Source of the DNA: a virus
IMG/VR virus record: IMGVR_UViG_3300032047_002388
Coordinates: 32,001 to 96,000 of that record
Length of the DNA: 64,000 nt
Direction: 5' to 3' (one strand)
Part shown: piece after piece, positions 4,446-20,920 of the stretch
Position numbering within the stretch: position 1 is the stretch's first letter
How the letters are laid out: the number at the start of each line of letters is the position of its first letter
Notes under the pieces: generated by a model
What the model saw: only the letters and a program-made list of their open reading frames with translations
What the model was told of the DNA's origin: nothing
Databases searched by the model: none
Position numbers and translations under genes: made by a program

Positions 4446-4645
4446 GATATCCTTCATATAAGAGACCGATTGAAAGAGTTAATAATAAACTATATGTTAT
4501 ACACGCAGAGTACGAACAACATAAGATAAAGAACGTATCAATGGTAAAAGAATGGTTGGGAGTAGATACTGTATTTAGACAACATTCAAAAGGTACTTAT
4601 ATTTTTTGTGAGGAAATTCAAGATGTAGATTGGGAAAATGTATAA
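4442..4645 (+). CDS. hypothetical protein
   Basis: 67-aa coupled ORF. Confidence 0.6.
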   Translation: MRYPSYKRPIERVNNKLYVIHAEYEQHKIKNVSMVKEWLGVDTVFRQHSKGTYIFCEEIQDVDWENV

Positions 4646-5168
4646 TCAAGAAGTAATATTTACCAAAGAAGAATGTAAACGTATCATTGATATGAATAGT
4701 GGATTTACACAAAGTAAATTAGCTTCTGCAGATGATGGATATAAATCATCGGAAAGGTCAAGTTATGATTCTGTAACTAAGACAACTGATGAGATACGAA
4801 ACCTACTTCTACCAAAATTATCTAAATATGGAGTGATTGAATTATCTAATTACTTTAATATTCTAAGATATGAAAAAGGTCAAGAGTTTAAAAAACATAG
4901 AGATATTGGTCTTAACAAACATACAAACAAACGATACAGAACATTAATTATACAACTATCTAACTTTGATGATTATGAAGGTGGTGATTTGATTGTATGG
5001 GATAACAACGAACAAATAGAAACTGTATGTAATAAAGAGATTGGAAATATGATTTTATTCCCATCTAAACTATTACATCAAGCAAAACCAGTTATAAGTG
5101 GAACACGATATGTAATGACATTTTTTCTTACAAACGAACACTTTAACATAAAAAACACTCTAATTTAA
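4638..5168 (+). CDS. 2OG-Fe(II) oxygenase, prolyl-hydroxylase-like
   Basis: RYEKGQEFKKHRD, YEGGDL, LFPS..LH...PV.SG.RY. Confidence 0.9.
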   Translation: MYNQEVIFTKEECKRIIDMNSGFTQSKLASADDGYKSSERSSYDSVTKTTDEIRNLLLPKLSKYGVIELSNYFNILRYEKGQEFKKHRDIGLNKHTNKRYRTLIIQLSNFDDYEGGDLIVWDNNEQIETVCNKEIGNMILFPSKLLHQAKPVISGTRYVMTFFLTNEHFNIKNTLI

Positions 5169-5180
5169 TATGTATATAAT

Positions 5181-5639
5181 ATGAGATGGGTAGAATACTT
5201 TAGAACTTTGGCTCACACGGTCAAACTAAAATCCAAAGATGAGAACACACAAATTGGTGCAATCATAGTTGGTAAGGATAAAGAAATTGTATCTACTGGT
5301 TATAACTCATTTCCACGAGGATTAAAAGATAACATTAGAGAAAGACAACAAAGACCAGAAAAGTATTTTTGGTTTGAACACGCAGAAAGAAATGCGATAT
5401 ATAACGCTGCAAGAATAGGAGTATCAACTAAGGGTTGTACTATGTATCTATCTTGTGGAATCCCTTGTTCAGATTGTGCAAGGGGAATTATAAATGCTGG
5501 TATCACACGAATCTTTTGTGAAAGAGGTGATGTTACCAAAGGAAAACATTGGGAGGAGAACTACGAAAGAAGTTGGGCGATGTTGGAAGAGGCTGGAATC
5601 AATGTTCAATTTTATGACGATGAATTTTTAAGCTTATGA
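5181..5639 (+). CDS. dCMP deaminase
   Basis: STGYN, HAERNA, PCSDC zinc motifs. Confidence 0.92.
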   Translation: MRWVEYFRTLAHTVKLKSKDENTQIGAIIVGKDKEIVSTGYNSFPRGLKDNIRERQQRPEKYFWFEHAERNAIYNAARIGVSTKGCTMYLSCGIPCSDCARGIINAGITRIFCERGDVTKGKHWEENYERSWAMLEEAGINVQFYDDEFLSL

Positions 5640-5767
5640 ACATAGATAAATTTATAGAAACAAGTACAAAGAGTGAAATTTTAAATAAACTCTTAGAACT
5701 TAAAACACAACCTCAAACAGAGGATGTGAAATTATTAATACAAAAATTACAACAAACACTAAGATGA
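5636..5767 (+). CDS. hypothetical 43-aa protein
   Basis: ATGA overlaps at both ends; MNIDKFIETSTKSEILNKLLEL... Confidence 0.5.
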   Translation: MNIDKFIETSTKSEILNKLLELKTQPQTEDVKLLIQKLQQTLR

Positions 5768-5946
5768 CAGAAGAAAAGATGATTGAGGAGATTCTATATG
5801 AATCCCATTCGGTTGGTATGAGAAGTGAGGTAATGAGCAGAGCAAACGATATCATGGGTTCTGAGGATTTCAAGTCAGATTGGAGAAATAGAAGAGTTGA
5901 CGCATATCAACAAGCTTACAAAGAACTAGTTGGTAGTAAATTCTAA
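5764..5946 (+). CDS. hypothetical protein
   Basis: 60-aa coupled ORF. Confidence 0.55.
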   Translation: MTEEKMIEEILYESHSVGMRSEVMSRANDIMGSEDFKSDWRNRRVDAYQQAYKELVGSKF

Positions 5947-5952
5947 TAAGTC

Positions 5953-5961
5953 ATATTTATA
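5953..5961 (+). promoter_or_regulatory. putative late promoter ATATTTATA
   Basis: Recurrent intergenic motif, 3 nt before ATG 5965. Confidence 0.55.
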
Positions 5962-5964
5962 TAC

Positions 5965-7404
5965 ATGGCACAGATATTTCCAACACCGAACAATGTAAAC
6001 ACTCAACCTATATCAAGAAGGGTTAGTGATAAGTTTAAGAAAATAAAAACTACAACTAACTTAGAAAAGATAAGCATTGTTAACGATTACCCAGTCATTA
6101 GAGGTAGAGAAGAGGATGGAAGTCCAGAAAACATTATATCCTACGCTAAAAGGATTAGAGACCACTACAATATTAAAACATCTGATGAAACAAAACACAA
6201 AGGTGTTCTTACTCCTCCTCATACTCAAGGTGTTGATTACTTTACAAACACAATAAATAGATTATCTCAATTTTATATTGCACCTGATAACTATAATGTA
6301 CCCCTACCAGAACCATTTGGTTATAGAGGATTTGAAGAATGGAAACAAGGTGCTACATTAGTAGAACGTAATTTTGCTGGTAATGCAACTTCATTTAGAT
6401 TTGTTATAGAATTCTTCGAAACTGGTAACAGATATTATAGTAGAAGATTAAGAGATGATTTAAATGAAGCAGACCAAAATGGTAATCCATATTTTACAAA
6501 ACATCTTATACCAACTATTATGATTCAATTGAATCAATTACAAAATTACCAAAAGGCATTCTGGCCACTAGAGGCTGTATGGGATGTACAAGTTCTTGAT
6601 TCACTAGGAAGTGGTTCAACTACTGAGTCTAACGAAATAGAAGTAGTTCAATATATAGATGCGTTGTTAAAAGGTCAACCAGTAACTAGAGATAACAAAT
6701 TAAAATCACCATACAAGAAAGGTACTGTTATATCTACCCATTGGTTTTCTCAAAATCCAAGAGGACTTGGAGATGATGAAACTGCATCATTCCTCGATGT
6801 AGATTTAAGTGGTGGAACAGATGCCGTAGATTCAGCAGGAGATACTGGAGTTGCAGAACCAACGCCAGGTGGAGGAGGAAGTACTCGAACAGTACAAGCA
6901 GATGATGGAACAGATGTTAACATTAGAGGAAATACTGGTAACCTAACAGACCAAGAAGTAGCAAATATATCAGCTGATTTAGGATTCGGACCTGGTACAG
7001 ACGAAACAACTACTGGTACAACATTTGCAGTAGATACTGATGGTGATGGTGAAATTGAATCTATTCTTAATCTAAACGATGACCCTAACTTCGAAACAAC
7101 ATTTGACCCATTTGGAAACGCTATTGGTAACAATGATACTTTTGGTGCAGCTGCAATATTAGGTAACAATTTATCTAATCTACAATCAGACGTACAAAAC
7201 TATAACAACACACAACCTTTAGGTGTTGGTGGTGCTCAAGGAAATTATGCTCCATTTGGTACACCAGGTGAATTCTCATATCAAACGAAATATTTTCAAG
7301 GAACAGAATATATTTGGAATAGAATGAATTCAGGTAAATGGGAGCCAACTTTCACTGCAAGTGGATTTGGTGGATTTGGCTTTAGTGGTGGACTCACCTT
7401 TTAA
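5965..7404 (+). CDS. hypothetical protein, acidic Gly/Thr/Asp-rich C-terminal half; possibly virion-associated
   Basis: 479-aa ORF behind late-type motif; DTDGDGE loop. Confidence 0.6.
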   Translation: MAQIFPTPNNVNTQPISRRVSDKFKKIKTTTNLEKISIVNDYPVIRGREEDGSPENIISYAKRIRDHYNIKTSDETKHKGVLTPPHTQGVDYFTNTINRLSQFYIAPDNYNVPLPEPFGYRGFEEWKQGATLVERNFAGNATSFRFVIEFFETGNRYYSRRLRDDLNEADQNGNPYFTKHLIPTIMIQLNQLQNYQKAFWPLEAVWDVQVLDSLGSGSTTESNEIEVVQYIDALLKGQPVTRDNKLKSPYKKGTVISTHWFSQNPRGLGDDETASFLDVDLSGGTDAVDSAGDTGVAEPTPGGGGSTRTVQADDGTDVNIRGNTGNLTDQEVANISADLGFGPGTDETTTGTTFAVDTDGDGEIESILNLNDDPNFETTFDPFGNAIGNNDTFGAAAILGNNLSNLQSDVQNYNNTQPLGVGGAQGNYAPFGTPGEFSYQTKYFQGTEYIWNRMNSGKWEPTFTASGFGGFGFSGGLTF

Positions 7405-7414
7405 ATAATAAGTT

Positions 7415-7768: not shown

Positions 7769-7771
7769 ATA

Positions 7772-7780
7772 ATATTTATA
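7772..7780 (+). promoter_or_regulatory. putative late promoter ATATTTATA
   Basis: Motif 3 nt before ATG 7784. Confidence 0.5.
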
Positions 7781-7783
7781 GAT

Positions 7784-8143: not shown

Positions 8144-8194
8144 AATACATTTATCAGATACTTATATAAAGAACAGCAATAAGAAAGAAATTAA

Positions 8195-10549
8195 ATGAAA
8201 GGTACACTATTTTCTAGTGATTTTATCATCGATGAATCTAATAATCTAAGATTACTAGAGTTTAATACAGACTCTGGTTTTATATCAGATACATTAGCTT
8301 CTCGTTTTGATTTTACTGATTTCATATCAGTACTATCTAGTAACAACATCACTAAACTATCGATTTTATATAAGAGTTGGCACAGAGAATTTGTTGACCA
8401 CTTAAACCAAGCAATTGAAAATGATGCAACTTTCATAACAGAATTTTCAAAGATAGAAGAAGCAGAACATACTGTATATCCAACAAACGTAACCGATGAA
8501 TCAGATAGATTTATTCTAAGAATATGTTACGATGAAAATGCAATATTCGATAGTACCTATTGTAAACAAAGAGTTGAAGTTTTAAAATTATTCCACGATA
8601 ATGATGCAACTGGTTCAATACCAGAGTTTAGAGCTAGTGGTAGTAATTGGGAAGGTACTTCAATGTCATCATCATTAAATCTAACAGCAAATTATCCTGA
8701 TTTAGCAGTAAAAGATTTAAGTGAGAATCACAATCCATTGCAGTTTGCTAAGTTCAACTCTACGTTATCATCAGAATCATCTTCGGCTGATTTACTTGAA
8801 GATTATTGGTGGAACTACTTAGATAGAAGTGACCAATACATGGAAAAGTATCACACCAATCCAACTCAAGTATCGAATGGTAAACAACAAACAGTACGAG
8901 AGTATGGTATCTTATATGGTAGTACTATTGAGTATGTAAGAATTGGTAGTTATACAATCGATTCTTTACTGCCAGTTGTTGATATATCTGGTTATGATGA
9001 TGCCAATAAAGCAGCAGATAATATACCAAACAAACATTACTTTGAATATACAACTAACTTTATCAGAACTAAGAATTGGAAAGATTCATTATTAGATTCA
9101 GAGGTTATAGTTAAATCAGATGGTTCATTTGTTTCGGTTGATGAAGCAATCATAGGTGATAATATAAAATCATATATTGTAAGTGGTTCACCTGATACTG
9201 ATGATGTAGATGTATTTGGTTCTTGGTCTTATGATGGTTCAACACTTCCATCGGGTTCTGAAGTAACATCATCTAATATCACATCTTTCAGTTCTGAATC
9301 ATTAGTATATGGAACTGGTATAGAACTTGTATTACCAACTGAAGAAACTATATATTTTGCACCATATAAAAACATATTAACATATAACTCATCATCCGAT
9401 GAATTTAAGTTTAAATCAGCACATACACTTCTACCAGGAGATGGTGGGGATTATCTTATAGATGGAACAGGTGGATTAATACCAATATCACAATCTAATA
9501 CATTTATATTAAACGATTCAAATCAAAATGAATATTATCAAGTTGACGTTGAGACAACCGATACATTCTTTATTTCTGCTTCAACTCCATTTGTAGTACA
9601 CAACGCACCATGTTTTATCGCAGGTACTAAAGTTCATATAGAAGAAAAAGGAATAACAAACATAGAAGATGTAGAAGTTGGTGATAAAGTAATTTCATAT
9701 AATCACGATACTGATACTGTTGAGTATAGAGAAGTTTTAAAAGTTAGAGAACAAGAAGGTAAGAATGTTGTAACTTATATATTTGAAAATGGTACAACAC
9801 TTAGTGCTACACCCGACCACCCATTGTTTGTAAATGGTAAAGGATATTCATCTTACTATCCTAAACAAACAAAAGAAGATAGTGGATTTGATGTAGAACA
9901 AATATTATTAGGAGATGAGGTTTTACACATGGACGGGTATGGTGTTGTTATAGATGATATAATAGAAGAACCAGTTACTCATACTGTATATAACCTAGAA
10001 GAAGTAGATGGTAATAATAATTTCTTTGTAGAAAATCTTCTTGCACATAATAGATATCTAACACCTCAAACTTGTTTTGCAGCAGGTACTCAAATCTCAT
10101 TATCAAATGGTGATGTTAAAGATATAGAAGATATAGTTGTAGGTGATGAAGTATTAGGATGGGATGGAGATACGATAGATTCAGCTGAAGTAATAGCAAT
10201 AGACCACAGACATACAGTTGGTTCTCACGCAGATGCTTGTGAATCAATAGGAGATGTACCTTCACTATATACAATAAATGATACTGAAATAGAATTCACA
10301 CCAGAACATCCATTCTTAACTAAAGAAGGTTGGAAATCACTAGTACCAGACCCTAAACAAGAACCATACCTATCAAGTGGAGAATTAAAAATATTAAAAA
10401 TAGGTGATTATATAAACAAAGATGGTGAATGGATAGAGATAGAAGATATAAGAATCATTCGTTCAGATGCAGAAGAACCAGTTTATAATATTACAGTTGA
10501 TAAGTTACATTCTTATATAGCAAATGGAATAATCGTACACAATAAATAA
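8195..10549 (+). CDS. circularly permuted ATP-grasp-like domain fused to three tandem Hint domains
   Basis: N-term DFIIDESNNLRLLEFNT; Hint1 aa298-470 (SLLDSEV...VVHN), Hint2 aa473-619 (CFIAGT..TPDHP..LAHN), Hint3 aa627-783 (CFAAGT..TPEHP..IVHN). Confidence 0.85.
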   Translation: MKGTLFSSDFIIDESNNLRLLEFNTDSGFISDTLASRFDFTDFISVLSSNNITKLSILYKSWHREFVDHLNQAIENDATFITEFSKIEEAEHTVYPTNVTDESDRFILRICYDENAIFDSTYCKQRVEVLKLFHDNDATGSIPEFRASGSNWEGTSMSSSLNLTANYPDLAVKDLSENHNPLQFAKFNSTLSSESSSADLLEDYWWNYLDRSDQYMEKYHTNPTQVSNGKQQTVREYGILYGSTIEYVRIGSYTIDSLLPVVDISGYDDANKAADNIPNKHYFEYTTNFIRTKNWKDSLLDSEVIVKSDGSFVSVDEAIIGDNIKSYIVSGSPDTDDVDVFGSWSYDGSTLPSGSEVTSSNITSFSSESLVYGTGIELVLPTEETIYFAPYKNILTYNSSSDEFKFKSAHTLLPGDGGDYLIDGTGGLIPISQSNTFILNDSNQNEYYQVDVETTDTFFISASTPFVVHNAPCFIAGTKVHIEEKGITNIEDVEVGDKVISYNHDTDTVEYREVLKVREQEGKNVVTYIFENGTTLSATPDHPLFVNGKGYSSYYPKQTKEDSGFDVEQILLGDEVLHMDGYGVVIDDIIEEPVTHTVYNLEEVDGNNNFFVENLLAHNRYLTPQTCFAAGTQISLSNGDVKDIEDIVVGDEVLGWDGDTIDSAEVIAIDHRHTVGSHADACESIGDVPSLYTINDTEIEFTPEHPFLTKEGWKSLVPDPKQEPYLSSGELKILKIGDYINKDGEWIEIEDIRIIRSDAEEPVYNITVDKLHSYIANGIIVHNK

Positions 10550-10551
10550 TC

Positions 10552-10692
10552 ATGGCAGATAAACCAATCATATATAAAAAAGTAAGTAATCCTTACACAA
10601 GAACTAACAATAGTTTGACAAGTGACCAACAAACAAAGGCCACAAACATCATCGGTCAATTTATAACTTACTTTAAAGCAAAACACTTATAG
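10552..10692 (+). CDS. 46-aa hypothetical protein directly after the Hint gene
   Basis: MADKPIIYKKVSNPYTRTNNSLTSDQQTKATNIIGQFITYFKAKHL, read manually. Confidence 0.6.
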   Translation: MADKPIIYKKVSNPYTRTNNSLTSDQQTKATNIIGQFITYFKAKHL

Positions 10693-10711: not shown

Positions 10712-11485
10712 ATGAGTAAATTATGGAATTTTAATTTACCCTTCTTTCATGGGAAATCCACAACAATAGATTGGATTCCAAACGATTCAAAAAAAGAGTT
10801 TGAGAAACACATCAGTATGTATCCTGATTCTGAGCATTTGAATAACTACAAAAACAATCCAATTAAATACAAACTAAATAACTATGGATTCAGAACAGAT
10901 GATGATTTCTTTGATGGGGATATAGGTACAGTTTACTTAGGATGTTCTCATACTTTTGGACTTGGACATTATTTAGAAAATACGTGGTCTTATAAACTCC
11001 ACCAAAAAGTTGGTGAGGGTAAATTTTTTAATCTTTCTTGCGGAGGGATAGGACTCACATCTCAATATTATTTTCTAAAATACTTTTCAGATATGTTAAA
11101 TATAAAAAAAGTATATCACTATTATCCACCAGAAGTTCGTTACAGATATGGGTTTATGAATGGTGATGGAAAGATAGATGTTTTTGCAAAGTATTTTGAT
11201 GAAGAAACATCTTCTGTTGATACAGAACTATGGAAAAAATATTTAGTACATGAAACTCATAATGAATTCCATAACAAGTTACATTTAGATGCAATAACTG
11301 GTCTTTGTTCTTTGATTGAATGTGATTATATACGAGTAGAAAATTCCTATATGAATGATAAATTTTGTGACGCGTATCATAAAGAACTTACACCCTCCAG
11401 AGATTTGTTACATCCATATGTAGAAAGACATGATAAGATAGTTGATAATTTTTTAAAATTAAATCGTAATAACTCTGTAATATGA
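10712..11485 (+). CDS. SGNH-hydrolase-like protein
   Basis: YKLNNYGFR, LGCSHTFG, FNLS..G, RDLLHP. Confidence 0.7.
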   Translation: MSKLWNFNLPFFHGKSTTIDWIPNDSKKEFEKHISMYPDSEHLNNYKNNPIKYKLNNYGFRTDDDFFDGDIGTVYLGCSHTFGLGHYLENTWSYKLHQKVGEGKFFNLSCGGIGLTSQYYFLKYFSDMLNIKKVYHYYPPEVRYRYGFMNGDGKIDVFAKYFDEETSSVDTELWKKYLVHETHNEFHNKLHLDAITGLCSLIECDYIRVENSYMNDKFCDAYHKELTPSRDLLHPYVERHDKIVDNFLKLNRNNSVI

Positions 11486-12156
11486 TTTTTTGTACTTTAT
11501 GTGTTGGTATTGATTGGTGTGAAAAACATTCTCAAGCTATTAATGATATAGGAGAGAATCATACAATATATGTTTATACAGATTGTCCACATTACTTTCC
11601 AAACTGTAATATAATTCAATACACACGAAGTGATTTTAGTTACTTTGAAAAGTTGGTTTTGTTATTTAATGTAATGGATGAGTGTAATGAAAGAGTTACA
11701 TACTTTGATTGTGATTCTACAAAAAGAAACCAAGTTCAACTAATGTTAAATGGATTAAATCAGCCATTCGATAACAAATCAATATACACATATAAAGTAT
11801 TTAAGAATGTAGAATATTCAATGGAACATTTATCAACAGACCCATCTTTATATACTTTAATGAATGTTTACAGAGAACTAGGATTTAAAGATGTTAGATG
11901 TAACTATCCTCACGAAAGAATATTATCATTACCTTTCATACCTAAGAAATATAAAAAACTAAAAGAAAAGGTTTTAAACGTACAACCAATTTGGGAAAAG
12001 AATTGGTCTATGGGAAAATCTTGGATAGGAACTCATCCATGTAATAAATGGTCACAATGTGGTTGTGGATATGCCGAGGGAGGTGCACTATCCATATATG
12101 CTAAAGAACTAAAAATAAATTTAGAACCTATTCTTCCAATAACCACATTATTCTAA
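11482..12156 (+). CDS. putative GT-A-fold glycosyltransferase-like protein (paralog of 13189-13821)
   Basis: FCTLCVG, VYTD, FSYFEKL, YFDCD (DxD), GYAEGGAL. Confidence 0.55.
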   Translation: MIFCTLCVGIDWCEKHSQAINDIGENHTIYVYTDCPHYFPNCNIIQYTRSDFSYFEKLVLLFNVMDECNERVTYFDCDSTKRNQVQLMLNGLNQPFDNKSIYTYKVFKNVEYSMEHLSTDPSLYTLMNVYRELGFKDVRCNYPHERILSLPFIPKKYKKLKEKVLNVQPIWEKNWSMGKSWIGTHPCNKWSQCGCGYAEGGALSIYAKELKINLEPILPITTLF

Positions 12157-12164
12157 TATTTATA
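12156..12164 (+). promoter_or_regulatory. putative late promoter ATATTTATA
   Basis: Intergenic motif upstream of ATG 12186. Confidence 0.5.
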
Positions 12165-12185
12165 CTTAGAACTAATACTGTTACT

Positions 12186-12701
12186 ATGAATAAAGCAGAC
12201 TATGTTCAGATGCGAATATATGCACCTGATTTTAAAATGCCATGTGAACTTGATGATAGATACTCCTATATTGAGATTTCAGAATATTCCCACGAAAAAG
12301 ATTTACTGAAAATAATCGATAGTATTAACGAAACACTATCTGATTGGAAAACCAGACCTGATGTTGATAATCTTAAAAAAAGATTTGAAGCAGGGAGTTC
12401 TTGTTTTATACAATATTTTAAAGGAGAAGTAACTGGTTGGTTTTGGACTTGTAATTTCTTAACACACGATTGGGTTGAAAAGGTAAAAGATTTACCAACA
12501 CCAAACTCAAACTATTCAGGTGGAACATATGTAATTAAAAAAGTTGCACCTAGAAATGCGGGATATCAACTATATGCATACTGTATTGAGAAAGTAATGA
12601 GTAGAACTGATTATGGATATGCGTATGTAGATAAATGGAACAAAGCACCAATCAGATTAAACTTTAATTGTGGAGCTACTTATATAGATAACTTACTATG
12701 A
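12186..12701 (+). CDS. GNAT-fold acetyltransferase-like protein
   Basis: CFIQYFKGEVTGWFW, TYV...RNAG, YVDKWNKAPIRLNFNCG. Confidence 0.6.
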   Translation: MNKADYVQMRIYAPDFKMPCELDDRYSYIEISEYSHEKDLLKIIDSINETLSDWKTRPDVDNLKKRFEAGSSCFIQYFKGEVTGWFWTCNFLTHDWVEKVKDLPTPNSNYSGGTYVIKKVAPRNAGYQLYAYCIEKVMSRTDYGYAYVDKWNKAPIRLNFNCGATYIDNLL

Positions 12702-13189
12702 TTTACAAAATATCAGAAGAAGAAGTTTCTACATTGGAAAATCTAATTAGTACTACGAGTAAAAGTAAGGATAACCAAGAAGAACAATTAACAGAGACAC
12801 AAGATTATATCAACAATCGTAGGTATGTATTGCCAGATATTGATATAGAATATTATTCTACTGATAATAAAGAACTAAACAAAAAACTTTCAGAGATTTT
12901 AAAGGTAGATGATGTAGTACCAATTACAATACATAAGTTCAAATATGAAAATGGTGCACATTCAAAAAGACACAATGATGTTAACTCTAATCAAACATTT
13001 GTAATAATATTAGAAGATGATTATGAGGGAGGTGATTTTTATTTAAATGATGAGTTAACTGATTTTAGAAATAGAGGAGATGTTGCAACTTATGTGGGTA
13101 AAGAAAGTCCTCACTATGTAACTCCAATAACAAAAGGAACCCGAACTGTATTAGTAGTTTGGTATCCTAAAAAAGATACACTAATATAA
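12698..13189 (+). CDS. 2OG-Fe(II) oxygenase, prolyl-hydroxylase-like
   Basis: HND, DDYEGGDF, H.VTPITKGTR..LV.W. Confidence 0.88.
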   Translation: MIYKISEEEVSTLENLISTTSKSKDNQEEQLTETQDYINNRRYVLPDIDIEYYSTDNKELNKKLSEILKVDDVVPITIHKFKYENGAHSKRHNDVNSNQTFVIILEDDYEGGDFYLNDELTDFRNRGDVATYVGKESPHYVTPITKGTRTVLVVWYPKKDTLI

Positions 13190-13821
13190 TGATAGAATTT
13201 GCAACATTATGTGTGGGTAAGGAATGGTGTTATGAATGGAAGGATGATATAAATAATTTTTCTGAATCACATAAACTACATTTACTTACAGATTGTAGAA
13301 GTTGGTTTGATTTCCAAACATACAGCTACAAGAGTAAACAATTTAGTTATTATGATAAACTTATATTTTTATTGGATTTAATGCAATTAAAAAAACAAAG
13401 AATTACTTATCTTGATGTAGATAAGTTACAACTTTATAATAACATTGATTACGATAATAAATCTTGTTATGTTTATAATACAATACAAACACCAATAATA
13501 TCAGAAGTGTTTGAATCAACAAGAAAAGAAATACATGATTACTTAGATATAGAAAATGAATCTGATGTATATACTCAAGAGGCATTAATATCTTTACCAT
13601 ATACATCTCAATTTAAAAATATAAAAAAAGATATATTAGAATTAAGAGGTATAGTAGAGAGAAATTTTGGTAATAGAGAATGGGATAATCCAAAATTAAA
13701 CAGATACAGTAAACATGGAATAGGTTATGGTGAAGGAAGTGCATTAACAGCAGTGTTATTAAAATACAACATAGATATAGTTAATGTGTATTCTAGTTTT
13801 AGGAGAGAAGTAATAATTTAA
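13189..13821 (+). CDS. putative GT-A-fold glycosyltransferase-like protein (paralog of 11482-12156)
   Basis: FATLCVG, LLTD, FSYYDKL, YLDVD, GYGEGSAL. Confidence 0.55.
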   Translation: MIEFATLCVGKEWCYEWKDDINNFSESHKLHLLTDCRSWFDFQTYSYKSKQFSYYDKLIFLLDLMQLKKQRITYLDVDKLQLYNNIDYDNKSCYVYNTIQTPIISEVFESTRKEIHDYLDIENESDVYTQEALISLPYTSQFKNIKKDILELRGIVERNFGNREWDNPKLNRYSKHGIGYGEGSALTAVLLKYNIDIVNVYSSFRREVII

Positions 13822-14499: not shown

Positions 14500-15285
14500 A
14501 TGTATAGTTACACTTTGTACAATAACGATTGTGTTTTAGATAAAACAACTAACACTATAATTTATAAAGAAGATAGTGAGTGGAAGTTATATGAAAAATG
14601 GAAGAAGGATAATGCTGAAGCTGCTGAGCATGCATGGGCAAGTAAACACAATTTACTATTATGGAACAAAGGTGAACCTATATTAAAAGATGGTGTAAAA
14701 TCATATTATGATAAAGATGGGTTTCTAATAAAAAAAGAAACTACAAATAAAATAGATTATTACAATGCAGATGTTATTTACAAAACTGAACACATTGAAA
14801 ATGACAGAATTGTTTTAATAAAAAAATATTCAGAAAACAAAATATTGTATGAAGAAAAAAACTTTAAATTAAAAACACATAAGGAGTTTGATATAGGAAC
14901 AGGTTCAATTGTTTATTACAAAAAAACCAAAGGAGATTTAGAATATGAAGTTTGGTATGATAATAAAATTGTAATCAAATCTTTCTTGAGAAAATTAGAT
15001 AAAATATTAAAGTTTACAGAATACTTTACTGGTATGAATTCTGTTAGTAAAAAATTACATTATTCAAATAACAATATGTATAAGTGTACCACATACTATA
15101 CATCTGGTCAAGTTAGGGGATGTGGTTTAATATCCAACGATGATAAGATGCAAGGTGAGTGGATATTCTATCATCACAACAATGAGGTTGAATCTAAACA
15201 CAACTTTAGTGATGGTAAGTTAATTGGTAAATCATTTTTGTTTTACGAAAATGGAAAGTTATATAAAGAAGTAAATCATGATTAG
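14500..15285 (+). CDS. MORN-variant repeat (YwqK-like) protein
   Basis: YYTSGQV, QGEWIFYH.N, DGKLIG...FYENGKL repeats. Confidence 0.65.
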   Translation: MYSYTLYNNDCVLDKTTNTIIYKEDSEWKLYEKWKKDNAEAAEHAWASKHNLLLWNKGEPILKDGVKSYYDKDGFLIKKETTNKIDYYNADVIYKTEHIENDRIVLIKKYSENKILYEEKNFKLKTHKEFDIGTGSIVYYKKTKGDLEYEVWYDNKIVIKSFLRKLDKILKFTEYFTGMNSVSKKLHYSNNNMYKCTTYYTSGQVRGCGLISNDDKMQGEWIFYHHNNEVESKHNFSDGKLIGKSFLFYENGKLYKEVNHD

Positions 15286-16141
15286 TTTTATTATAGCATT
15301 TGCTAGTAAAGGTGATAATTTATATCGATGGAAAGATACTGATGAGGGGATGATAATATTATCCACAATACTCTGTATTAAAAACATAAATAAGATATTT
15401 GATGTACCTAAAGAAATTATATTAGTTGACAACACTAATAGCTTTCCCAATATAGAAATCCCAAATCTTAAGATAGTAAAAGGATTACAATACAAAAAAG
15501 AATTTACAGAAGAAGAAATTTCAAAGTACAAGATAGATGATGTAACTAATCATAGTATGTGGGCATCAATTGCTTACAATATAGGTATCGAACATTCTAT
15601 CGGAGATTACATTGTACTACAACATAACGATATATTTTATCACGAGAATCTTTTACCAACTCTACGCGATATATTGGAGTATAATGAGTATGTTTCGGTA
15701 GATTCTAAACACCTTAGTTTGACAGGATATTTAGGGAATAAAGATATTATTGATTCACTAGATATTGATTTTGAAATTGGATATGAAAATGGGGGATATG
15801 TAAAACAAAAGCTATTTGGATTAGCAGATGCATATTTCTTTATGTGTAAAAAAGAATTCTTTGATGATTATTCTGTTGATTGGGGATATGGGGATACAAA
15901 TCATGGAGCAACAATAAAATGTTTAACTAATGGAGATTCTTTCTTACATATAGAACCATTCTTTGGAAACAGTAATTATATTACTGATGATTCAAACTCA
16001 TATATTCTTTTTGGTAAAAAATTTATCACACATCTAAAAGGCGGGTTTTCAGAAAATAAACTATCGTTTAAAAAAGAAAACAACGAATATAATATGGATG
16101 AAACAAACAACTATATAGAACAACTTAAACAACTATCATGA
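15278..16141 (+). CDS. GT2-like glycosyltransferase
   Basis: EIILVDN, AYNIGIEHSIGDYIVLQHNDI. Confidence 0.8.
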   Translation: MISFIIAFASKGDNLYRWKDTDEGMIILSTILCIKNINKIFDVPKEIILVDNTNSFPNIEIPNLKIVKGLQYKKEFTEEEISKYKIDDVTNHSMWASIAYNIGIEHSIGDYIVLQHNDIFYHENLLPTLRDILEYNEYVSVDSKHLSLTGYLGNKDIIDSLDIDFEIGYENGGYVKQKLFGLADAYFFMCKKEFFDDYSVDWGYGDTNHGATIKCLTNGDSFLHIEPFFGNSNYITDDSNSYILFGKKFITHLKGGFSENKLSFKKENNEYNMDETNNYIEQLKQLS

Positions 16142-16863
16142 AAACATTTATAATTAGAATAAGTAGTAATAAAGATTCAGTTAGGTCTGCACAACAAACA
16201 ATAGATTCAGCAAGAAGTGTAGGGTATAATGAACCAATTGAAATATTCGAAGCAATAAAACCAACTGAGTGGAAATCCATTTTACCATATCCAAACACCT
16301 TTAATGACTATGCAAGACCAGATAATGTTGCTGCATGTTTTGCCTCTCATTATTTATTATGGGAAAAGTGTGTAGAACTAAATGAACCTATATTAATTTT
16401 AGAACATGATGCAATATTCAAAACTAATATACCTGATATAGATTTCGATATGTGTGTTAACTTTGGTAGACCAAGTTATATCAGACCTAATAAAATTGTT
16501 TACGATGAACCAAAAGAGGGATTAGATATTGTTAACCAAGTTAACTTTTTAGGTCATCATGCATATGCTATGAAACCAAAAGCAGCTAAAATATTTTGTG
16601 ATGATGTAAAGAAAAAAGTATTAACACCAAACGATGTGTGGATTGAAAGAAACTCATATCCATGGCTAGAAGAATACAGACCATTTCCAATTCATGCAGA
16701 TACTGATTTCTCTACTATACAAACTATACTACCAGATGACCATCCAATTATGGAATCATATTATAAAGTTACAAGTAAGGAGAATCCTAATTACGAATAC
16801 TTAGAAAAATATTTTCCTCATGTTCTAACAGGTCCACAATCAGAAAGACATATAAATGTATAA
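16138..16863 (+). CDS. GT25-family glycosyltransferase
   Basis: CFASHYLLWEKCVELNEPILILEHDA, GHHAY..P..A. Confidence 0.85.
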   Translation: MKTFIIRISSNKDSVRSAQQTIDSARSVGYNEPIEIFEAIKPTEWKSILPYPNTFNDYARPDNVAACFASHYLLWEKCVELNEPILILEHDAIFKTNIPDIDFDMCVNFGRPSYIRPNKIVYDEPKEGLDIVNQVNFLGHHAYAMKPKAAKIFCDDVKKKVLTPNDVWIERNSYPWLEEYRPFPIHADTDFSTIQTILPDDHPIMESYYKVTSKENPNYEYLEKYFPHVLTGPQSERHINV

Positions 16864-17692
16864 TAAAGTAAATTTACCAATTGGATGGACTGAAGAAATT
16901 CCAAAATATTGGACAGACCCAAGTAAGATAAACGCATGGGTTGGTGAACCTATTGAATCTAATAAGTTTCTTTTAGTTAGTTGGAGAATGGCAGGTTCAG
17001 AATTTTGTAAAGAGTTAATACGAGAGAATTATCCAGAAACAGTAAATATAAACCATTGGTCAAAGAGTCATATTATCATAGGAAAGAAACTTACTCAACA
17101 GTTAATTGATAATGCAAACACCAAAGTGTTCATGATAATATCAGACCCGAGAGATGTTGCAAGTAACTTAGTTAGTTTTGAGAATGGATTTGGGTTACAC
17201 TACCATGGTCATCATGATTATACACATGGTACGTCTGATTCAAATAGTGTAACATTTTTAAATGAAGTTGCCGATAAACAAATTGAGTTAGTAAATCATT
17301 ATACAAAAAGATTTGGTGATAACTGTATTGTACTGCGATATGAAGATGCATTTCAAAACCAAGATAAATTTCACAATCAAGTATCTAAGTTTATCGGATA
17401 CGAACCATTAGGTATTGATGATGTTAGAAAATATAAATGGTCAATCTATAAAAATGTAGGGTTGTTTAGAAACCACTTTGACTCAGATGTTTTAACCAAA
17501 CACTACAATGAGTACAAATGGTTTTATGATAAATGGGAATATCCAATTGAAGGAATGAATGATTTAAGATATGGATGGCATAGATTTAATGATAAGGTAA
17601 ATGGGAGACAACTTACCGAAGATTATAAACAGATGTTAAAAAGAAATGGAGTTTCCGAATCCGATAGAACAAACAATATAGATGAATTCTAA
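16856..17692 (+). CDS. sulfotransferase-like protein
   Basis: WRMAGSE (degenerate PAPS loop), KSH, DPRDVASN, LRYED. Confidence 0.65.
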   Translation: MYNKVNLPIGWTEEIPKYWTDPSKINAWVGEPIESNKFLLVSWRMAGSEFCKELIRENYPETVNINHWSKSHIIIGKKLTQQLIDNANTKVFMIISDPRDVASNLVSFENGFGLHYHGHHDYTHGTSDSNSVTFLNEVADKQIELVNHYTKRFGDNCIVLRYEDAFQNQDKFHNQVSKFIGYEPLGIDDVRKYKWSIYKNVGLFRNHFDSDVLTKHYNEYKWFYDKWEYPIEGMNDLRYGWHRFNDKVNGRQLTEDYKQMLKRNGVSESDRTNNIDEF

Positions 17693-19157
17693 GAAAAATG
17701 TTATAGTAGTTTCGGCAAGAAGAAGTGGTACGCATCTTCTTCATGATTTAATAGTTAATAATTTTGGATATGAAAGTACTAATTACAACTATATAGATTA
17801 CTATAAATTTACAGATGAAATGGAAGGGTTTGAATCATCTATGAATGAAGGCGGTAAAATAACTTGGACTCATTCTCATGATTATAAGGATTACCACAAA
17901 TACAATCATAGTATTGATAACCAAAATAAATTAGATAGATTCTTTTCCGAATCTAAAATTATATTAGTTTACAGAGATGTTAGAGATATAATAACATCAT
18001 GTTATCACAGACCAAGATATAAATCTAAATATAAAACATTTGATAACTTTTACAAGAACTTCGATTTCGATGGATGTGAATTGATTGACCAGAAATACGA
18101 TAATATGTTTGAATTATTACTTCAGTATTATAAGAATTGGTTTTCTGTTTACATGGCAAAAGAACTTCTTGATATCGATATGGAAGTAATATCGTTTGAA
18201 GAAATAATAAAAGATTACGATTTTTCAGTATCTAAGATAGGAAAGTTTTTAGAACAAACACCAACGGGAGTTGATGTTAGGTTACCAAATAAAAATAATG
18301 AAAACATTATTTACACAACCAATGATTTTAGAAATGGAAAGATTAATGATTGGCTTTCGACTATGGAACAGCAATTTGGTACAGAGTTGGGTGAAAGGTT
18401 TTACCATGACTTAGGTGCAGGTTTAGATTGTTTTTTAAACGATATAAAGATACATAAATATCATAATCCTCAGCGAAATAAGTTTTACAAACCCATTCCA
18501 CTAAATGTTGAAAAAGATTTAACATCTGAATTAGAACAATATAAAAATAAATTTAGGTTCTTCGGTGAAAGAGGTGCAATAGAATTAATAGAGAATAGAT
18601 ACAAAGATTCAATACAGAAATCAACAGATTTCAGATACTATCACAAAGTTTTTTATTACGATAAATATGTATTGAAATTTCACTATCCATGTAAAGCAAG
18701 TTTAGATAAAAAAACATTTGATTCTACAATACCTACTGCATCAAAAGAACAACTCTTAACGATTCTTAAAACAAATGATTTTCTATATGAAAATGGTATT
18801 GTTCCTAAACTATATCATGCAGGAATCTACAAAGGAATTTTGTATGTTATACAAGAAAGATATTCTGAAGAAAGTATAATTTATAACAAATACAATTTTC
18901 ATCCTAAGTGGGATAATTTTTTCCAATGGGCAGTTGATTTGGGTTTAGACAGACAATTAAAAGAATATTTTTTCAAAGCATTAGAGAACAATATTTTACT
19001 AACTGATTTAATCAATGTATATAATAATGCAATTGATAAGAATGGTAATATAAAATACTTTGATTTAGATGGTATAAAATATTTCGAAACAAAAGAAGAA
19101 ATGATTAACTCAGAAGATTATAAAAACTCAATAGGTATTATAAAAGACATAACATGA
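17682..19157 (+). CDS. sulfotransferase fused to C-terminal kinase-like domain
   Basis: SARRSGTHLL, YRDVRDIITS, FRNGKINDW; then YVLKF, VPKLY, TDLINVYN, KYFDLDG. Confidence 0.7.
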   Translation: MNSKKNVIVVSARRSGTHLLHDLIVNNFGYESTNYNYIDYYKFTDEMEGFESSMNEGGKITWTHSHDYKDYHKYNHSIDNQNKLDRFFSESKIILVYRDVRDIITSCYHRPRYKSKYKTFDNFYKNFDFDGCELIDQKYDNMFELLLQYYKNWFSVYMAKELLDIDMEVISFEEIIKDYDFSVSKIGKFLEQTPTGVDVRLPNKNNENIIYTTNDFRNGKINDWLSTMEQQFGTELGERFYHDLGAGLDCFLNDIKIHKYHNPQRNKFYKPIPLNVEKDLTSELEQYKNKFRFFGERGAIELIENRYKDSIQKSTDFRYYHKVFYYDKYVLKFHYPCKASLDKKTFDSTIPTASKEQLLTILKTNDFLYENGIVPKLYHAGIYKGILYVIQERYSEESIIYNKYNFHPKWDNFFQWAVDLGLDRQLKEYFFKALENNILLTDLINVYNNAIDKNGNIKYFDLDGIKYFETKEEMINSEDYKNSIGIIKDIT

Positions 19158-19846
19158 AAGGATTTGTAATATATGTAGATACTTCTTCTAAGAGTAAGGA
19201 AAGTGCAAAACATACTCAAAGTATGTTTGGTGATATTGATATTACTTTATTCAAAGGGGTAGATAAAACAAATGTTTGGCAAACTTTTATTGATTCTGAG
19301 TTAAGTATGTTAGATATAAAACACTTTGGAGGAGGAAAAGTTGATTCAGAAATAGCTACATTTTTTTCTCATTATAACGTCTGGTTAAAATGTATAGAAT
19401 TGAATGAACCTATATTAGTATTAGAACACGATGCTATTATTATTGGTGAAATTGATTTTAGTATTTTAAATAAATTTGAAGGTGATTTATTAAACTTAGG
19501 TGAACCAAATTGGGGAAGTATCACTTTAGATTCACATCCATCTCCATGGCTAGATAAACCAAAAGGAATTTTTTTACGAGATGTATGTAATAACAAACAC
19601 GATATCTATAAAATGTGGAACAACGAAAAGGGGTTGTGTCATTGTGATACTATGTGGTTATTTGGGGCTCATGCATATTTATTAAACCCAAGTGGTGCAA
19701 TAAAATTAGTTGAAGGTACTAAGAAAGGAATCCTTCCAGCAGATATTTATATAAGACAAGAACTCATAGATATCTATGATTACTTACCTCACCCAATAAA
19801 ACAAAATGGAGATTTTTCATTAATACAAAGATGGATGGATGAATAA
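19154..19846 (+). CDS. GT25-family glycosyltransferase
   Basis: SHYNVWLKCIELNEPILVLEHDA, GAHAYLLNPSGA, PADIYI. Confidence 0.85.
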   Translation: MKGFVIYVDTSSKSKESAKHTQSMFGDIDITLFKGVDKTNVWQTFIDSELSMLDIKHFGGGKVDSEIATFFSHYNVWLKCIELNEPILVLEHDAIIIGEIDFSILNKFEGDLLNLGEPNWGSITLDSHPSPWLDKPKGIFLRDVCNNKHDIYKMWNNEKGLCHCDTMWLFGAHAYLLNPSGAIKLVEGTKKGILPADIYIRQELIDIYDYLPHPIKQNGDFSLIQRWMDE

Positions 19847-20297
19847 TATTTTTGAAACATATACGAGTGGTTTAAAAGATAATTTATTTATAGTTACAAA
19901 AGTTATTGTAAAAGATAACAAAGGTAAGTTTCATATAAACACGTCTATACCTCAAGAAATCTTTTTAAGTATAATCGATTTTTCTCTTAATTTTGATAAT
20001 CTAAAATTTGTTTGTAGAGCAAATCATGATGATAACGCAGGTACACCAAATAGTAATCAAATAACTCTATTACGAAAATATGGTAAGATATTTTTTCAAG
20101 ACCCTTGGCCAACACCTGTACCAAATTTTAAATCTGATTCTGTTGTATTTAGATTTGGATATGATGAAGGATGTGAATATGATAAAATGTGTGCACACAA
20201 TCCAATTCACAATGTAGAAGAAAATGATGGAACGTATTACTATTTAATAAGTAAAAATAATATAGTGAAATTGGAATCAAAAAAAATATTAATATGA
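19839..20297 (+). CDS. hypothetical protein resembling the N-terminal domain of the triple-Hint protein
   Basis: SDSVVFRFGYDEGCEYDKMC vs SDRFILRICYDENAIFDSTYC. Confidence 0.55.
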   Translation: MNNIFETYTSGLKDNLFIVTKVIVKDNKGKFHINTSIPQEIFLSIIDFSLNFDNLKFVCRANHDDNAGTPNSNQITLLRKYGKIFFQDPWPTPVPNFKSDSVVFRFGYDEGCEYDKMCAHNPIHNVEENDGTYYYLISKNNIVKLESKKILI

Positions 20298-20920
20298 AAC
20301 AAAAAATATTAATAATAGGTCAACCAAGAAGTGGTACATCATCATTACTAAATAATATATGTAAACAAGATTATGTACGAATATCAGAACCATATAATTA
20401 TAGTTTCGGTGAAAGATATGAATGGCCATTAAAGGAATTAGAATCCGATAGAGTGGCAATAAAATCTTTGGTTGTACAAATACCATCCAAAGAAAAATCA
20501 AAAGGATGTATGCACTTCGTTGAGTTTTCTAAGTTAGTTGATAGAGTTATATTATTAAAAAGAAATAACCAACAAGAACATTTTGAAAGTTTATTAAACT
20601 TACATTATAGATTACTTCAAGATAATAAAATAAATTCACATAAGAAATATGTATTTGATGGATTACTTTTTAGTAAAATTCCAAAAGGTCTTATTACTAA
20701 AATAGAAGAACTACAGCAAAACTCACTAGAGGATATAACTGAAGTATCTGAAAAATTAAATATTCAACCCACTTCCTATGAAGATTTATATGGGGAAGAT
20801 AGAATGAAATCATTTGAAATAATAAACAAATGGGATTTAGATTTAGACCCATTTGAACTAAACGAAGCTTTACATCCCCAACATAGATACAGACAGTTCA
20901 CAGATAAGAATCTTTTATAG
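20294..20920 (+). CDS. sulfotransferase (Stf0-like)
   Basis: IGQPRSGTSSL, SEPYN, ILLKR, SYEDL. Confidence 0.75.
   Translation: MKQKILIIGQPRSGTSSLLNNICKQDYVRISEPYNYSFGERYEWPLKELESDRVAIKSLVVQIPSKEKSKGCMHFVEFSKLVDRVILLKRNNQQEHFESLLNLHYRLLQDNKINSHKKYVFDGLLFSKIPKGLITKIEELQQNSLEDITEVSEKLNIQPTSYEDLYGEDRMKSFEIINKWDLDLDPFELNEALHPQHRYRQFTDKNLL

What the first reader, a model, noticed from the sequence alone, without database searches (positions are those of the whole stretch)
4638..20920. Unrelated tailoring enzymes share a short C-terminal tag ending in two hydrophobic residues
Seen C-termini: IKNTLI (2OG, 4638), RNNSVI (SGNH, 10712), PITTLF (GT-like, 11482), YIDNLL (GNAT, 12186), KKDTLI (2OG, 12698), RREVII (GT-like, 13189), SKKILI (19839), TDKNLL (sulfotransferase, 20294), NKQVI (GT-like, 56301), and more weakly TKPLL (MTase, 457). 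Five consecutive enzyme genes (10712-13821), just downstream of the Hint gene and its 46-aa neighbour, all have it although their folds differ. Inference: a PDZ-ligand-like docking or targeting signal that recruits enzymes to a shared scaffold, the assembling virion or a protease. Caveats: four of these ends are ATGA overlaps, which bias the last codon; about half of the tailoring enzymes lack the tag; a few unrelated genes also end in LL/II/IL.
Basis: partly seen in the sequence, partly recalled or inferred. Interest (0 to 1): 0.8.

Follow-up and report, generated by a model that had tools for sequence, protein, structure and literature searches.

The report
Shared end-tag on phage tailoring enzymes
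Several unrelated small enzymes of this uncultured marine phage and its relatives end in the same floppy tail, a few lysine/serine-type residues and then two bulky oily residues at the very end, which evolution keeps in place and which looks like an undescribed address or docking label whose reader is still unknown.

Summary
All ten quoted C-termini are in the sequence. In the 128-kb genome, 26 of 161 plus-strand ORFs end in two of I/L/V/F/M against 11.6 expected. ATGA overlaps inflate this (9 of 25; non-ATGA 17 of 136). The stronger evidence is family conservation. Among hmmsearch representatives of the 2OG oxygenase family, 119 of 130 single-domain proteins end this way, after a polar linker of 7-29 residues. 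So do 36 of 37 GT6-like and 17 of 18 sulfotransferase-like homologues. Across related contigs 20 of 117 gene families keep the pair at the terminus, against 1-11 at other offsets; 73 of 115 such ends are not start/stop overlaps. AlphaFold leaves the tails unpacked. A related Flavobacterium phage shows no enrichment (12 of 162). The tail is therefore a selected short linear motif, about K-[S/T/K/N]-[L/I]-[I/L]-COOH. Within this genome, enrichment in Pfam-defined tailoring enzymes is not significant (8 of 34 versus 18 of 127). No reader was found and no PDZ domain is encoded. Docking, degron and membrane-anchor readings stay open. The scan noted the same kind of tail on another phage genome (e1-5648742).

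The parts
457..1077 (+). Methyltransf_24 methyltransferase, ends TKPLL
   Evidence: Pfam E 1.6e-20. 4 of 6 distinct family tails in related contigs end in two hydrophobic residues. The stop is not an ATGA overlap.
4638..5168 (+). 2OG-Fe(II) oxygenase (PF13640), ends IKNTLI after a 12-residue tail beyond the domain
   Evidence: Pfam match ends at residue 164 of 176. TAA stop with a 12-nt gap. 6 of 8 distinct family tails are tagged.
10712..11485 (+). 257-aa protein of no known family (reader: SGNH), ends RNNSVI, ATGA overlap
   Evidence: No Pfam or PHROG hit. No relative in IMG/VR by pattern scan, so conservation could not be tested.
11482..12156 (+). GT6-like glycosyltransferase paralogue, ends PITTLF
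   Evidence: Clusters and aligns with 13189. Its homologue in L008 ends TNNLI. TAA stop, 29-nt gap.
12186..12701 (+). 171-aa protein of no known family (reader: GNAT), ends YIDNLL, ATGA overlap
   Evidence: Only relatives of 90% identity or more keep NLL; 12 more distant homologues end in polar tails. This is the weakest member.
12698..13189 (+). P4H/PiuC-like 2OG-Fe(II) oxygenase, ends PKKDTLI after the last strand
   Evidence: Pfam. AF2 pLDDT 86.6; last strand is 149-156 and residues 161-163 are below 50. Foldseek hits PiuC and prolyl hydroxylases, E 1e-8. 14 of 15 homologues and 119 of 130 representatives are tagged.
13189..13821 (+). GT6-like (retaining GT-A) glycosyltransferase, ends FRREVII
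   Evidence: AF2 pLDDT 90.2 with residues 207-210 below 50. Foldseek hits alpha-1,3-galactosyltransferase, GTA/GTB and BoGT6a, E 1e-5, TM about 0.5. D76 and D78 are invariant and the terminal I is kept in 90% or more. 36 of 37 homologues are tagged.
19839..20297 (+). 152-aa protein of no known family, ends SKKILI, ATGA overlap
   Evidence: One homologue (L013, 34% identity) ends NRKSIL. No Pfam or PHROG hit.
20294..20920 (+). Sulfotransferase-like P-loop protein (PRSGT[ST]S), ends TDKNLL
   Evidence: Alignment A2: 23 of 25 tagged, including two truncated forms ending YII and KLF. 17 of 18 database homologues tagged. Atlas feature neighbours carry Stf0/sulfotransferase Pfam families. TAG stop, 28-nt gap.
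56301..57554 (+). 417-aa protein of no known family (reader: GT-like), ends NKQVI, ATGA overlap
   Evidence: Four IMG/VR relatives end KQII (two), NKLI and NNNL. All are ATGA overlaps, so this family cannot separate tag from overlap.
21482..21964 (+). NT5C 5'-nucleotidase ending DYLL: hydrophobic pair that is part of the fold, not a tail
   Evidence: Pfam NT5C covers residues 43-157 of 160. 26 of 26 orthologues keep SILxxLL. Counted among the 26 but probably structural.
8195..10549 (+). 784-aa protein with Hint/intein domains at 468-783 and an unassigned 465-aa head; clade-specific neighbour of the tagged genes (candidate reader, untested)
   Evidence: Pfam Hint hits. Head has no Pfam or PDB sequence hit. 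Family present in 15 of 20 close loci and 1 of 61 others. It also directly follows two tagged glycosyltransferases in L097 and L099.

Best explanation
The tails are a genuine short linear motif at the protein level. In an uncultured marine T4-like phage clade, several unrelated families of small tailoring enzymes carry it: P4H/PiuC-like 2OG oxygenases, GT6-like and GT2-type glycosyltransferases, two sulfotransferase-type families, a methyltransferase and a radical-SAM enzyme. Each ends in a flexible lysine/serine/threonine/asparagine-rich linker of variable length, followed by exactly two bulky aliphatic residues, about K-[S/T/K/N]-[L/I]-[I/L]-COOH.

Shown here: the pair is anchored to the terminus rather than to a position in the fold. 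It is kept through changes of linker length, truncations and an extension. It is kept with any stop-codon context. It is not packed in the predicted structures.

Inferred: the free carboxylate plus the two aliphatic side chains are read in trans by one shared partner, in the way PDZ-type pockets, PTS1 receptors or encapsulin shells read C-terminal peptides. Enzymes that finish the same product would thereby be gathered in one place, for example on a scaffold, on the substrate (a virion fibre or a small peptide) or at the membrane. About a third of the genome-wide excess is a by-product of ATGA start/stop overlaps.
For: Genome-wide excess: 26 of 161 against 11.6 expected; it is still present without ATGA overlaps, 17 of 136, p 0.018.

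Clade level: 111 of 554 distinct genes (20%) against 8.8% internal frequency in the closest contigs, p 4e-16.

Family level: 20 of 117 families keep the pair at the terminus, against 1-11 families at offsets 1-15. 73 of 115 such ends are neither ATGA nor TAATG overlaps.

2OG family: 119 of 130 single-domain representatives (clusters at 50% identity) end in the pair, against 1-9 at other offsets. Position -3 is S/T in 78 of them and position -4 is K in 50. Tail length is 7-29 residues, and the pair is kept in 79% or more of every length class. Hydrophobic fraction is 0.95, 0.95, 0.03 and 0.11 at positions -1 to -4.

Other families: GT6-like 36 of 37, sulfotransferase-like 17 of 18, 2OG 14 of 15. 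Truncated sulfotransferase-like forms (YII, KLF) and an extended GT6-like form (…SLKLKKLI) again end in the pair.

Structure: AF2 models have pLDDT 90 and 87 but drop below 50 for the last 4 and 3 residues.

Replication: in contig L098 seven consecutive genes carry the pair (2OG, GT2 three times, Sulfotransfer_2 and two unknowns); only one is an ATGA overlap.

Controls: a related Flavobacterium phage of similar GC shows 12 of 162 against 7.9% internal frequency. Nucleotide context before stops in non-coding DNA gives 10.4%.
Against: No reader was found. There is no PDZ or other peptide-binding domain in 146 proteins, and the conserved neighbours have no known family.

Within this genome most classical sugar-nucleotide enzymes lack the tail (epimerases, RmlC, DegT, GT2, GT25, GT7, cytidylyltransferases). 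Enrichment in Pfam-defined tailoring enzymes is not significant, 8 of 34 versus 18 of 127, p 0.15.

Non-enzymes and small ORFs also carry it. ATGA overlaps carry it far more often: 9 of 25 here and 34 of 69 in the close clade. T at -1 of start codons (61%) explains the last residue of that class.

In GT6 enzymes a C-terminal tail is known to take part in catalysis, so one family has an explanation of its own. Some 2OG orthologues lack the pair: ADKK and KTL in L097 and L099, and cultured cyanophage and Xanthomonas phage homologues.
Confidence: 0.5

Rival explanations
1. Degron. The tail is recognised by a host AAA+ protease or unfoldase (ClpXP, FtsH or similar) and sets the lifetime of accessory enzymes. 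The model is the C-motif-2 tag of phage Mu transposase.
For: The tail is flexible, at the extreme C-terminus, has a basic stretch and ends in an aliphatic residue. Basic residues are 27-35% at positions -3 to -5 against 12% background. MuA's tag …EQNRRKKAI is a ClpX C-motif-2 degron (PMC12723719, passages read; PMC5143411, passages read). Three-residue C-terminal degrons such as LPF are species-specific (PMC5143411). Structural genes of the window almost never carry the tail: of the ORFs from 35110 to 54909 only 38391-40418 does.
Against: The host is unknown, so no protease could be examined. There is no obvious reason why a lytic phage would destabilise a whole set of late-region enzymes. Position -2 is as tightly fixed as position -1, unlike RRKKAI or LAA.
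Confidence: 0.2
2. Separate intramolecular roles. In each family the tail is a lid or anchor that closes on its own enzyme, as in the GT6 C-terminal segment over UDP. The likeness between families is convergence helped by AT-rich composition.
For: 13189 has a GT6-like fold with a DxD motif and a conserved W/F-R-K before the pair. PDB entries among the hits include a C-terminally truncated alpha-1,3-galactosyltransferase studied for catalysis (2jcj, title only). That the GT6 tail orders over the donor is recalled knowledge.
Against: The same K-[ST]-[LI]-[IL] end occurs in DSBH, GT-A, P-loop, radical-SAM and methyltransferase folds. Linker length varies from 7 to 29 residues within one family, which is hard to reconcile with a fixed intramolecular site. 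AF2 does not dock the tails, although the alignments were shallow (17 and 24 sequences).
Confidence: 0.12
3. No protein function. The ends are a by-product of ATGA/TAATG overlaps, the start-codon context (T at -1, A at -3) and AT-rich codons, carried along by descent.
For: ATGA class is 9 of 25 against 17 of 136, and 37 of 115 against 12-14% for spaced genes across contigs. T at -1 is 61% at starts with non-coding upstream DNA, which equals the 60% of NTA last codons. Intergenic-like composition alone gives 10-13%, close to the non-ATGA rate in this genome.
Against: T at -4 is 56% in the ATGA class against 27% at other starts. 73 of 115 family-conserved ends are not overlaps. 119 of 130 2OG representatives carry the pair, with S/T at -3 and K at -4. 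I and L are enriched but K, N, Y and F, which also have all-AT codons, are not. The control phage with similar GC and overlaps shows 7.4%.
Confidence: 0.1
4. Peripheral membrane anchor. Lysines plus two terminal aliphatic residues hold enzymes at the inner membrane, where lipid-linked glycans are built.
For: Carriers include GT2, GT64, GT6-like and sulfotransferase enzymes. The linker is basic.
Against: Two residues are few for membrane binding, no amphipathic helix is predicted, and the free carboxylate is negative. No cellular relatives of two tagged families were found for comparison.
Confidence: 0.08

Closest known systems
Class I PDZ-binding motifs (X-[S/T]-X-hydrophobic-COOH)
   Same: Extreme C-terminus with a free carboxylate, an aliphatic last residue and S/T two positions before it (78 of 130 2OG representatives), on a flexible tail.
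   Different: The residue between them is almost always L or I here (hydrophobic in 95%), whereas it is variable in PDZ ligands (recalled). No PDZ domain is encoded by the phage. Only 4 of the 10 tags in the window have S/T at that position.
ClpX C-motif-2 degron of phage Mu transposase (…RRKKAI)
   Same: A phage protein with a basic stretch followed by an aliphatic C-terminal residue, read by a host machine (PMC12723719 and PMC5143411, passages read).
   Different: There are two aliphatic residues rather than A-I, S/T is preferred at -3, and the tag sits on many enzymes rather than one. Degradation was not tested.
Encapsulin cargo targeting peptides and eukaryotic PTS1 (SKL-COOH)
   Same: Short C-terminal peptides after a flexible linker give unrelated enzymes one common address. 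Encapsulation depends on C-terminal targeting peptides (PMC7925596 and PMC10960027, abstracts seen). PTS1 is recalled.
   Different: The sequence is different. No shell or receptor is known here, and T4-type heads load internal proteins by N-terminal signals (recalled).
C-terminal segment of GT6 glycosyltransferases (alpha-1,3-galactosyltransferase, GTA/GTB)
   Same: 13189 has a GT6-like fold, a DxD motif and a conserved basic pair in a mobile C-terminal tail.
   Different: This applies to one of the tagged folds only. GT6 tails do not end in two aliphatic residues (recalled).
Earlier scan note e1-5648742 (another uncultured phage): C-terminal K-[LFM]-[IL] on about a dozen island enzymes
   Same: The same kind of tail: lysine-rich, then two bulky hydrophobic residues, flexible, kept by selection, reader unknown.
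   Different: It is on other DNA. No shared sequence with this window was found by the scan's index. It is an unchecked AI note, not independent evidence.

Membership tests
Class I PDZ ligand | Free C-terminus with a hydrophobic last residue | tested here: met
   95% hydrophobic at position -1 in 130 2OG representatives. All ten window tags comply.
Class I PDZ ligand | S or T at position -2 relative to the last residue (third from the end) | tested here: inconclusive
   78 of 130 2OG representatives. 4 of 10 window tags. 23% S/T among 103 tagged genes of the close clade.
Class I PDZ ligand | A PDZ domain that reads it | tested here: not met
   No PDZ hit among 146 phage proteins scanned with Pfam. 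The host is unknown, so a host PDZ protein cannot be tested.
ClpX C-motif-2 degron | Basic residues followed by a C-terminal aliphatic residue on an unstructured tail | tested here: met
   Basic residues are 27-35% at positions -3 to -5 against 12% background. Tails have pLDDT below 50.
ClpX C-motif-2 degron | ClpXP-dependent degradation conferred by the tail | not testable with these tools
   Needs a degradation assay.
Bacterial beta-clamp-binding motif QL[SD]LF | Q at position 1 and L at position 2 of the pentapeptide | tested here: not met
   Position -4 is K (50), T, N or S; only 8 of 130 have Q and 5 have L. No clamp or polymerase gene was found in the contig.
GT6-type mobile C-terminal lid (13189 and 11482 only) | Retaining GT-A fold of GT6 type with a DxD motif | tested here: met
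   Foldseek E 1e-5, TM about 0.5, to a3GalT, GTA/GTB and BoGT6a. D76 and D78 are invariant.
GT6-type mobile C-terminal lid (13189 and 11482 only) | Tail closes over the bound UDP-sugar | not testable with these tools
   Needs a liganded structure. In the apo model the last four residues are unplaced.
Encapsulin-type cargo targeting peptide | C-terminal peptide after a flexible linker on unrelated cargo enzymes | tested here: met
Encapsulin-type cargo targeting peptide | Binding to the inner face of an HK97-fold shell | not tested

The most novel reading that the evidence does not exclude
The tail is an address label of a phage-encoded tailoring assembly line. A single reader grips the free aliphatic C-termini and gathers hydroxylase, glycosyltransferases, sulfotransferases and methyltransferase on one substrate. 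It could instead be the serine/glycine-rich fibre with collagen-like triplets at 60918. This would be a bacterial-virus counterpart of PTS1 or encapsulin targeting.
Probability: 0.15. Interest if true: 0.9.

Novelty: new variant of a known kind. Interest (0 to 1): 0.7.

Why it matters
Shared peptide addresses on enzymes are well known in eukaryotes and in bacterial nanocompartments, but not for phage accessory enzymes. A four-residue end-tag that marks tailoring enzymes would help in three ways. It would let one pick out functionally linked genes in uncultured phage genomes from sequence alone. It would point to an unknown reader, either a phage scaffold or a host machine. It would also give a minimal portable tag for co-localising or controlling proteins. 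The question is directly testable with tail deletions, one-residue extensions and peptide pull-downs.

Tried and rejected
The tool was then declared unavailable, so nothing was folded and no pair was tested.

Close relatives in cultured phages: none by DNA and none by protein for 12186 and 13189. The 2OG enzymes match cultured phages only at 25-38% identity, and alignments stop before the tail.

PHROGs gave no family for any of 16 proteins. Pfam at E up to 5 gave nothing usable for 8 unknowns, and a PDB sequence search of the 8195 head gave nothing.

Cellular relatives of the sulfotransferase-like and GT6-like families: none in 185,579 species genomes by pattern scan. The scan can miss distant relatives.

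Relatives of 10712 and 19839 in IMG/VR: none.

sHsp-groove idea (phage Hsp20 at 23588): set aside, because the tails are adjacent hydrophobic pairs rather than the I-x-I pattern (recalled motif). Not tested.

Clamp-binding idea: the motif does not fit and no clamp gene is in the contig.

Codon count at the last two codons of tagged families: 61 changes keep T at the middle base against 16 that break it. This was judged too biased by family selection to use as evidence.

Literature: two full-text searches for such a tag on phage enzymes found nothing relevant. One search failed on a malformed term.

Full report
What the window is. The window is bases 32001-96000 of a single 128,139-bp contig. 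It has about 31% GC, and 161 of the 172 called ORFs lie on the plus strand. It encodes a T4-type portal, a gp25-like baseplate wedge protein, a prohead protease and a terminase. The nearest cultured relatives by portal protein are Microcystis phage Mel-JY01 (51%) and Flavobacterium phage immuto (46%). No cultured phage is close at DNA level. The genome is unusually rich in glycan and small-molecule enzymes. These include epimerases, RmlC, DegT, GT2, GT7, GT25, three sulfotransferase-type proteins, APS kinase, carbamoyltransferase, cytidylyltransferases, a radical-SAM enzyme, SAM synthetase, methyltransferases and at least five 2OG oxygenases.

The observation. All ten quoted C-termini are present. 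Four are ATGA overlaps and one is a TAATG overlap. I called ORFs by a simple greedy rule: longest ORFs of 45 aa or more, with overlap of at most 60 nt. Stops are reliable under this rule; some small ORFs may be spurious. On that set, 26 of 161 plus-strand ORFs end in two residues from I, L, V, F, M. The internal dipeptide frequency (7.2%) predicts 11.6 (binomial p 9e-5). The same count at offsets 1-11 from the end is 9-20. A run of five has p about 0.01 by shuffling, with or without stratifying for ATGA (post hoc).

How much is overlap and composition. The ATGA class carries the pair in 9 of 25 cases and all other genes in 17 of 136 (p 0.018 against the internal rate). At 44 starts with 18 nt or more of non-coding upstream DNA, T stands at -1 in 61% and A at -3 in 64%. 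In an ATGA overlap, -1 is the middle base of the last codon, so NTA (L, I, V) is expected in about 60%, as seen. T at -4, the middle base of the penultimate codon, is 56% in the ATGA class but 27% at other starts, so that residue is not explained. Stop codons in non-coding DNA are preceded by two NTN codons in 10.4% of cases, and in-frame internal pairs in 7.3%. A related phage of similar GC (34%) is Flavobacterium phage immuto. In its first 100 kb it shows no excess: 12 of 162 against 7.9% internal, and 1 of 13 ORFs in its own glycan cluster. Overlap and start context therefore inflate the count but do not make the signal.

Conservation in relatives. I collected 81 IMG/VR stretches around PhoH and the 2OG gene. 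This gave 1,983 proteins in 567 clusters. Orthologues keep their state: tagged families stay tagged and untagged families stay untagged. In the 20 closest contigs, 111 of 554 distinct genes (20%) end in the pair against 8.8% internally (p 4e-16). In more distant contigs the figures are 36 of 335 and 42 of 355. At family level, 20 of 117 families with three or more distinct tails keep the pair in 60% or more of members. At offsets 1-15 the number of such families is 1-11. Of the 115 tagged ends in those 20 families, 73 are neither ATGA nor TAATG overlaps.

Database searches give the same result. The pair ends 36 of 37 homologues of 13189, 17 of 18 of 20294 and 14 of 15 of 12698. A profile search with the 2OG alignment against 1.84 billion representatives returned 150 best hits. 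Of the 130 that are single-domain (140-200 aa), 119 end in the pair; other offsets give 1-9. The last residue is I in 77 and L in 35. The one before is L in 67 and I in 38. Position -3 is S in 46 and T in 32, and position -4 is K in 50. After the last strand of the fold (R-x-x-L-V-V-W) the tail is 7-29 residues long, and the pair is kept in 79% or more of every length class. The hydrophobic fraction is 0.95, 0.95, 0.03 and 0.11 at positions -1 to -4. Two truncated sulfotransferase-like proteins end again in YII and KLF. An extended GT6-like protein ends …SLKLKKLI. The pair is therefore tied to the terminus and not to a column of the fold.

Structure. AlphaFold2 models of 13189 (pLDDT 90.2) and 12698 (86.6) are confident except for the last four and three residues, which fall below 50. 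The alignments were shallow (17 and 24 sequences). 13189 resembles GT6 retaining glycosyltransferases (E 1e-5, TM about 0.5) and has an invariant D-x-D. 12698 resembles PiuC and prolyl 4-hydroxylases (E 1e-8). 20294 has a PRSGT[ST]S P-loop, and its feature neighbours in the Atlas carry sulfotransferase families.

Which proteins carry it. With tailoring enzymes defined by Pfam alone, the figures are 8 of 34 against 18 of 127 (p 0.15). Adding the five hand-labelled tagged genes gives p 0.0016, but that is circular. Epimerases, RmlC, DegT, GT2, GT25, GT7 and cytidylyltransferases lack the tail. The untagged block 14500-19846 is absent from the closest contig L001, where PhoH is followed directly by the 20294 homologue.

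In related contigs the link to tailoring enzymes is striking. In L098, seven consecutive genes carry the pair: an unknown, a 2OG oxygenase, GT2_4, Sulfotransfer_2, GT2, GT2_4 and a 481-aa unknown. Only one of them is an ATGA overlap. In L003, L009 and L019, four families next to PhoH, including a radical-SAM enzyme, all carry it. In L097 and L099, two glycosyltransferases (GT2_4, GT64) carry it although the neighbouring 2OG orthologue does not.

Some carriers are not enzymes. They include a 115-132-aa family with a very basic tail and two families of about 60 aa. NT5C ends in LL as part of its fold. 12186 keeps NLL only in close relatives. Cultured cyanophage and Xanthomonas phage 2OG homologues (25-29% identity) end …GPHWK, …GPHWR and …GPKFR, without the tail. 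No cellular relatives of the GT6-like and sulfotransferase-like families were found by pattern scan of 185,579 species genomes.

Mechanism. The following is shown: a terminus-anchored, flexible, selected motif of about K-[S/T/K/N]-[L/I]-[I/L]-COOH occurs on unrelated folds. The following is inferred: it is read in trans by one partner through the carboxylate and the two aliphatic side chains. I rank a docking or co-localisation label first at 0.5 (this figure covers the trans-read motif as a whole). A host-protease degron of the MuA C-motif-2 type follows at 0.2; the MuA tag …RRKKAI and the species-specific three-residue tag LPF are documented in PMC12723719 and PMC5143411, passages read. Family-specific intramolecular lids come next at 0.12, a pure by-product at 0.1 and a membrane anchor at 0.08.

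No reader is identified. There is no PDZ or other peptide-binding domain in 146 proteins. The clade-conserved neighbours are unassigned: 22059, 22505, 24237, 21230, 24044 and the head of 8195. The 8195 family is clade-specific, present in 15 of 20 close loci and 1 of 61 others, and lies next to tagged genes also in L097 and L099. Another scan note (e1-5382204, unchecked) likens its head to ligases acting on C-terminal carboxylates. I could not confirm that by sequence. The paper behind the comparison (Pederick et al. 2023) I saw only as a title in a reference list. The planned complex prediction could not be run.

Novelty. Two full-text searches found no description of such a tag on phage enzymes. 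Sullivan et al. 2010 (PMC3037559, passages read) report many 2OG oxygenase paralogues of unknown role in cyanomyoviruses, but no tail motif in the passages I saw. The scan itself noted the same kind of tail on another uncultured phage (e1-5648742). That is a lead and not independent proof. I file the finding as a new variant of a known kind, C-terminal short linear address or degron motifs.

Noticed in passing
window 5953, 7772, 12156, 34186, 35079, 37381, 43987, 50875, 52800 and three more: ATATTTATA occurs 12 times, all on the plus strand (5.3 expected; 2 of 100 shuffles reach 12). Nine copies lie within about 45 nt upstream of gene starts, mostly structural genes, and one lies just before 12186. 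It looks like a late-promoter-type motif.
   Followed up: partly
window 14500-19846: This block holds a MORN-like protein, GT2, GT25 (twice), an unknown and Sulfotransfer_1. None carry the tail. The block is absent from the closest contig L001, where PhoH is followed directly by the 20294 homologue, so it is probably a recent insertion.
   Followed up: partly
window 60918-64000 (ORF runs to genome 98998): A 2026-aa serine/glycine/threonine-rich protein has nine collagen-like G-X-Y triplets at residues 879-905. It is a possible substrate for the prolyl-hydroxylase-like 2OG enzymes and glycosyltransferases.
   Followed up: no
window-wide start codons (44 with non-coding upstream): The start context is A-rich, with A at -3 in 64% and T at -1 in 61%. 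Few starts have clear Shine-Dalgarno sequences, which resembles hosts that initiate without SD pairing.
   Followed up: no
window 57551-60709: A single 1052-aa ORF joins an Mre11-like phosphoesterase (Metallophos) to a Rad50/SbcC-like ATPase. These are normally two genes (gp47 and gp46 in T4).
   Followed up: no
window 25392-26288: UvdE UV-endonuclease ends at …ILPFI. Most relatives carry a further 17-18 residues (…YSGLLxTSSYE), so its hydrophobic end here results from a shortened C-terminus.
   Followed up: partly
window 8195-10692: A 784-aa protein has several Hint/intein-type matches (468-783) and an unassigned 465-aa head. It is followed by a 46-aa ORF whose relatives end …KHS or …KHL. The pair is conserved in the close clade.
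   Followed up: partly
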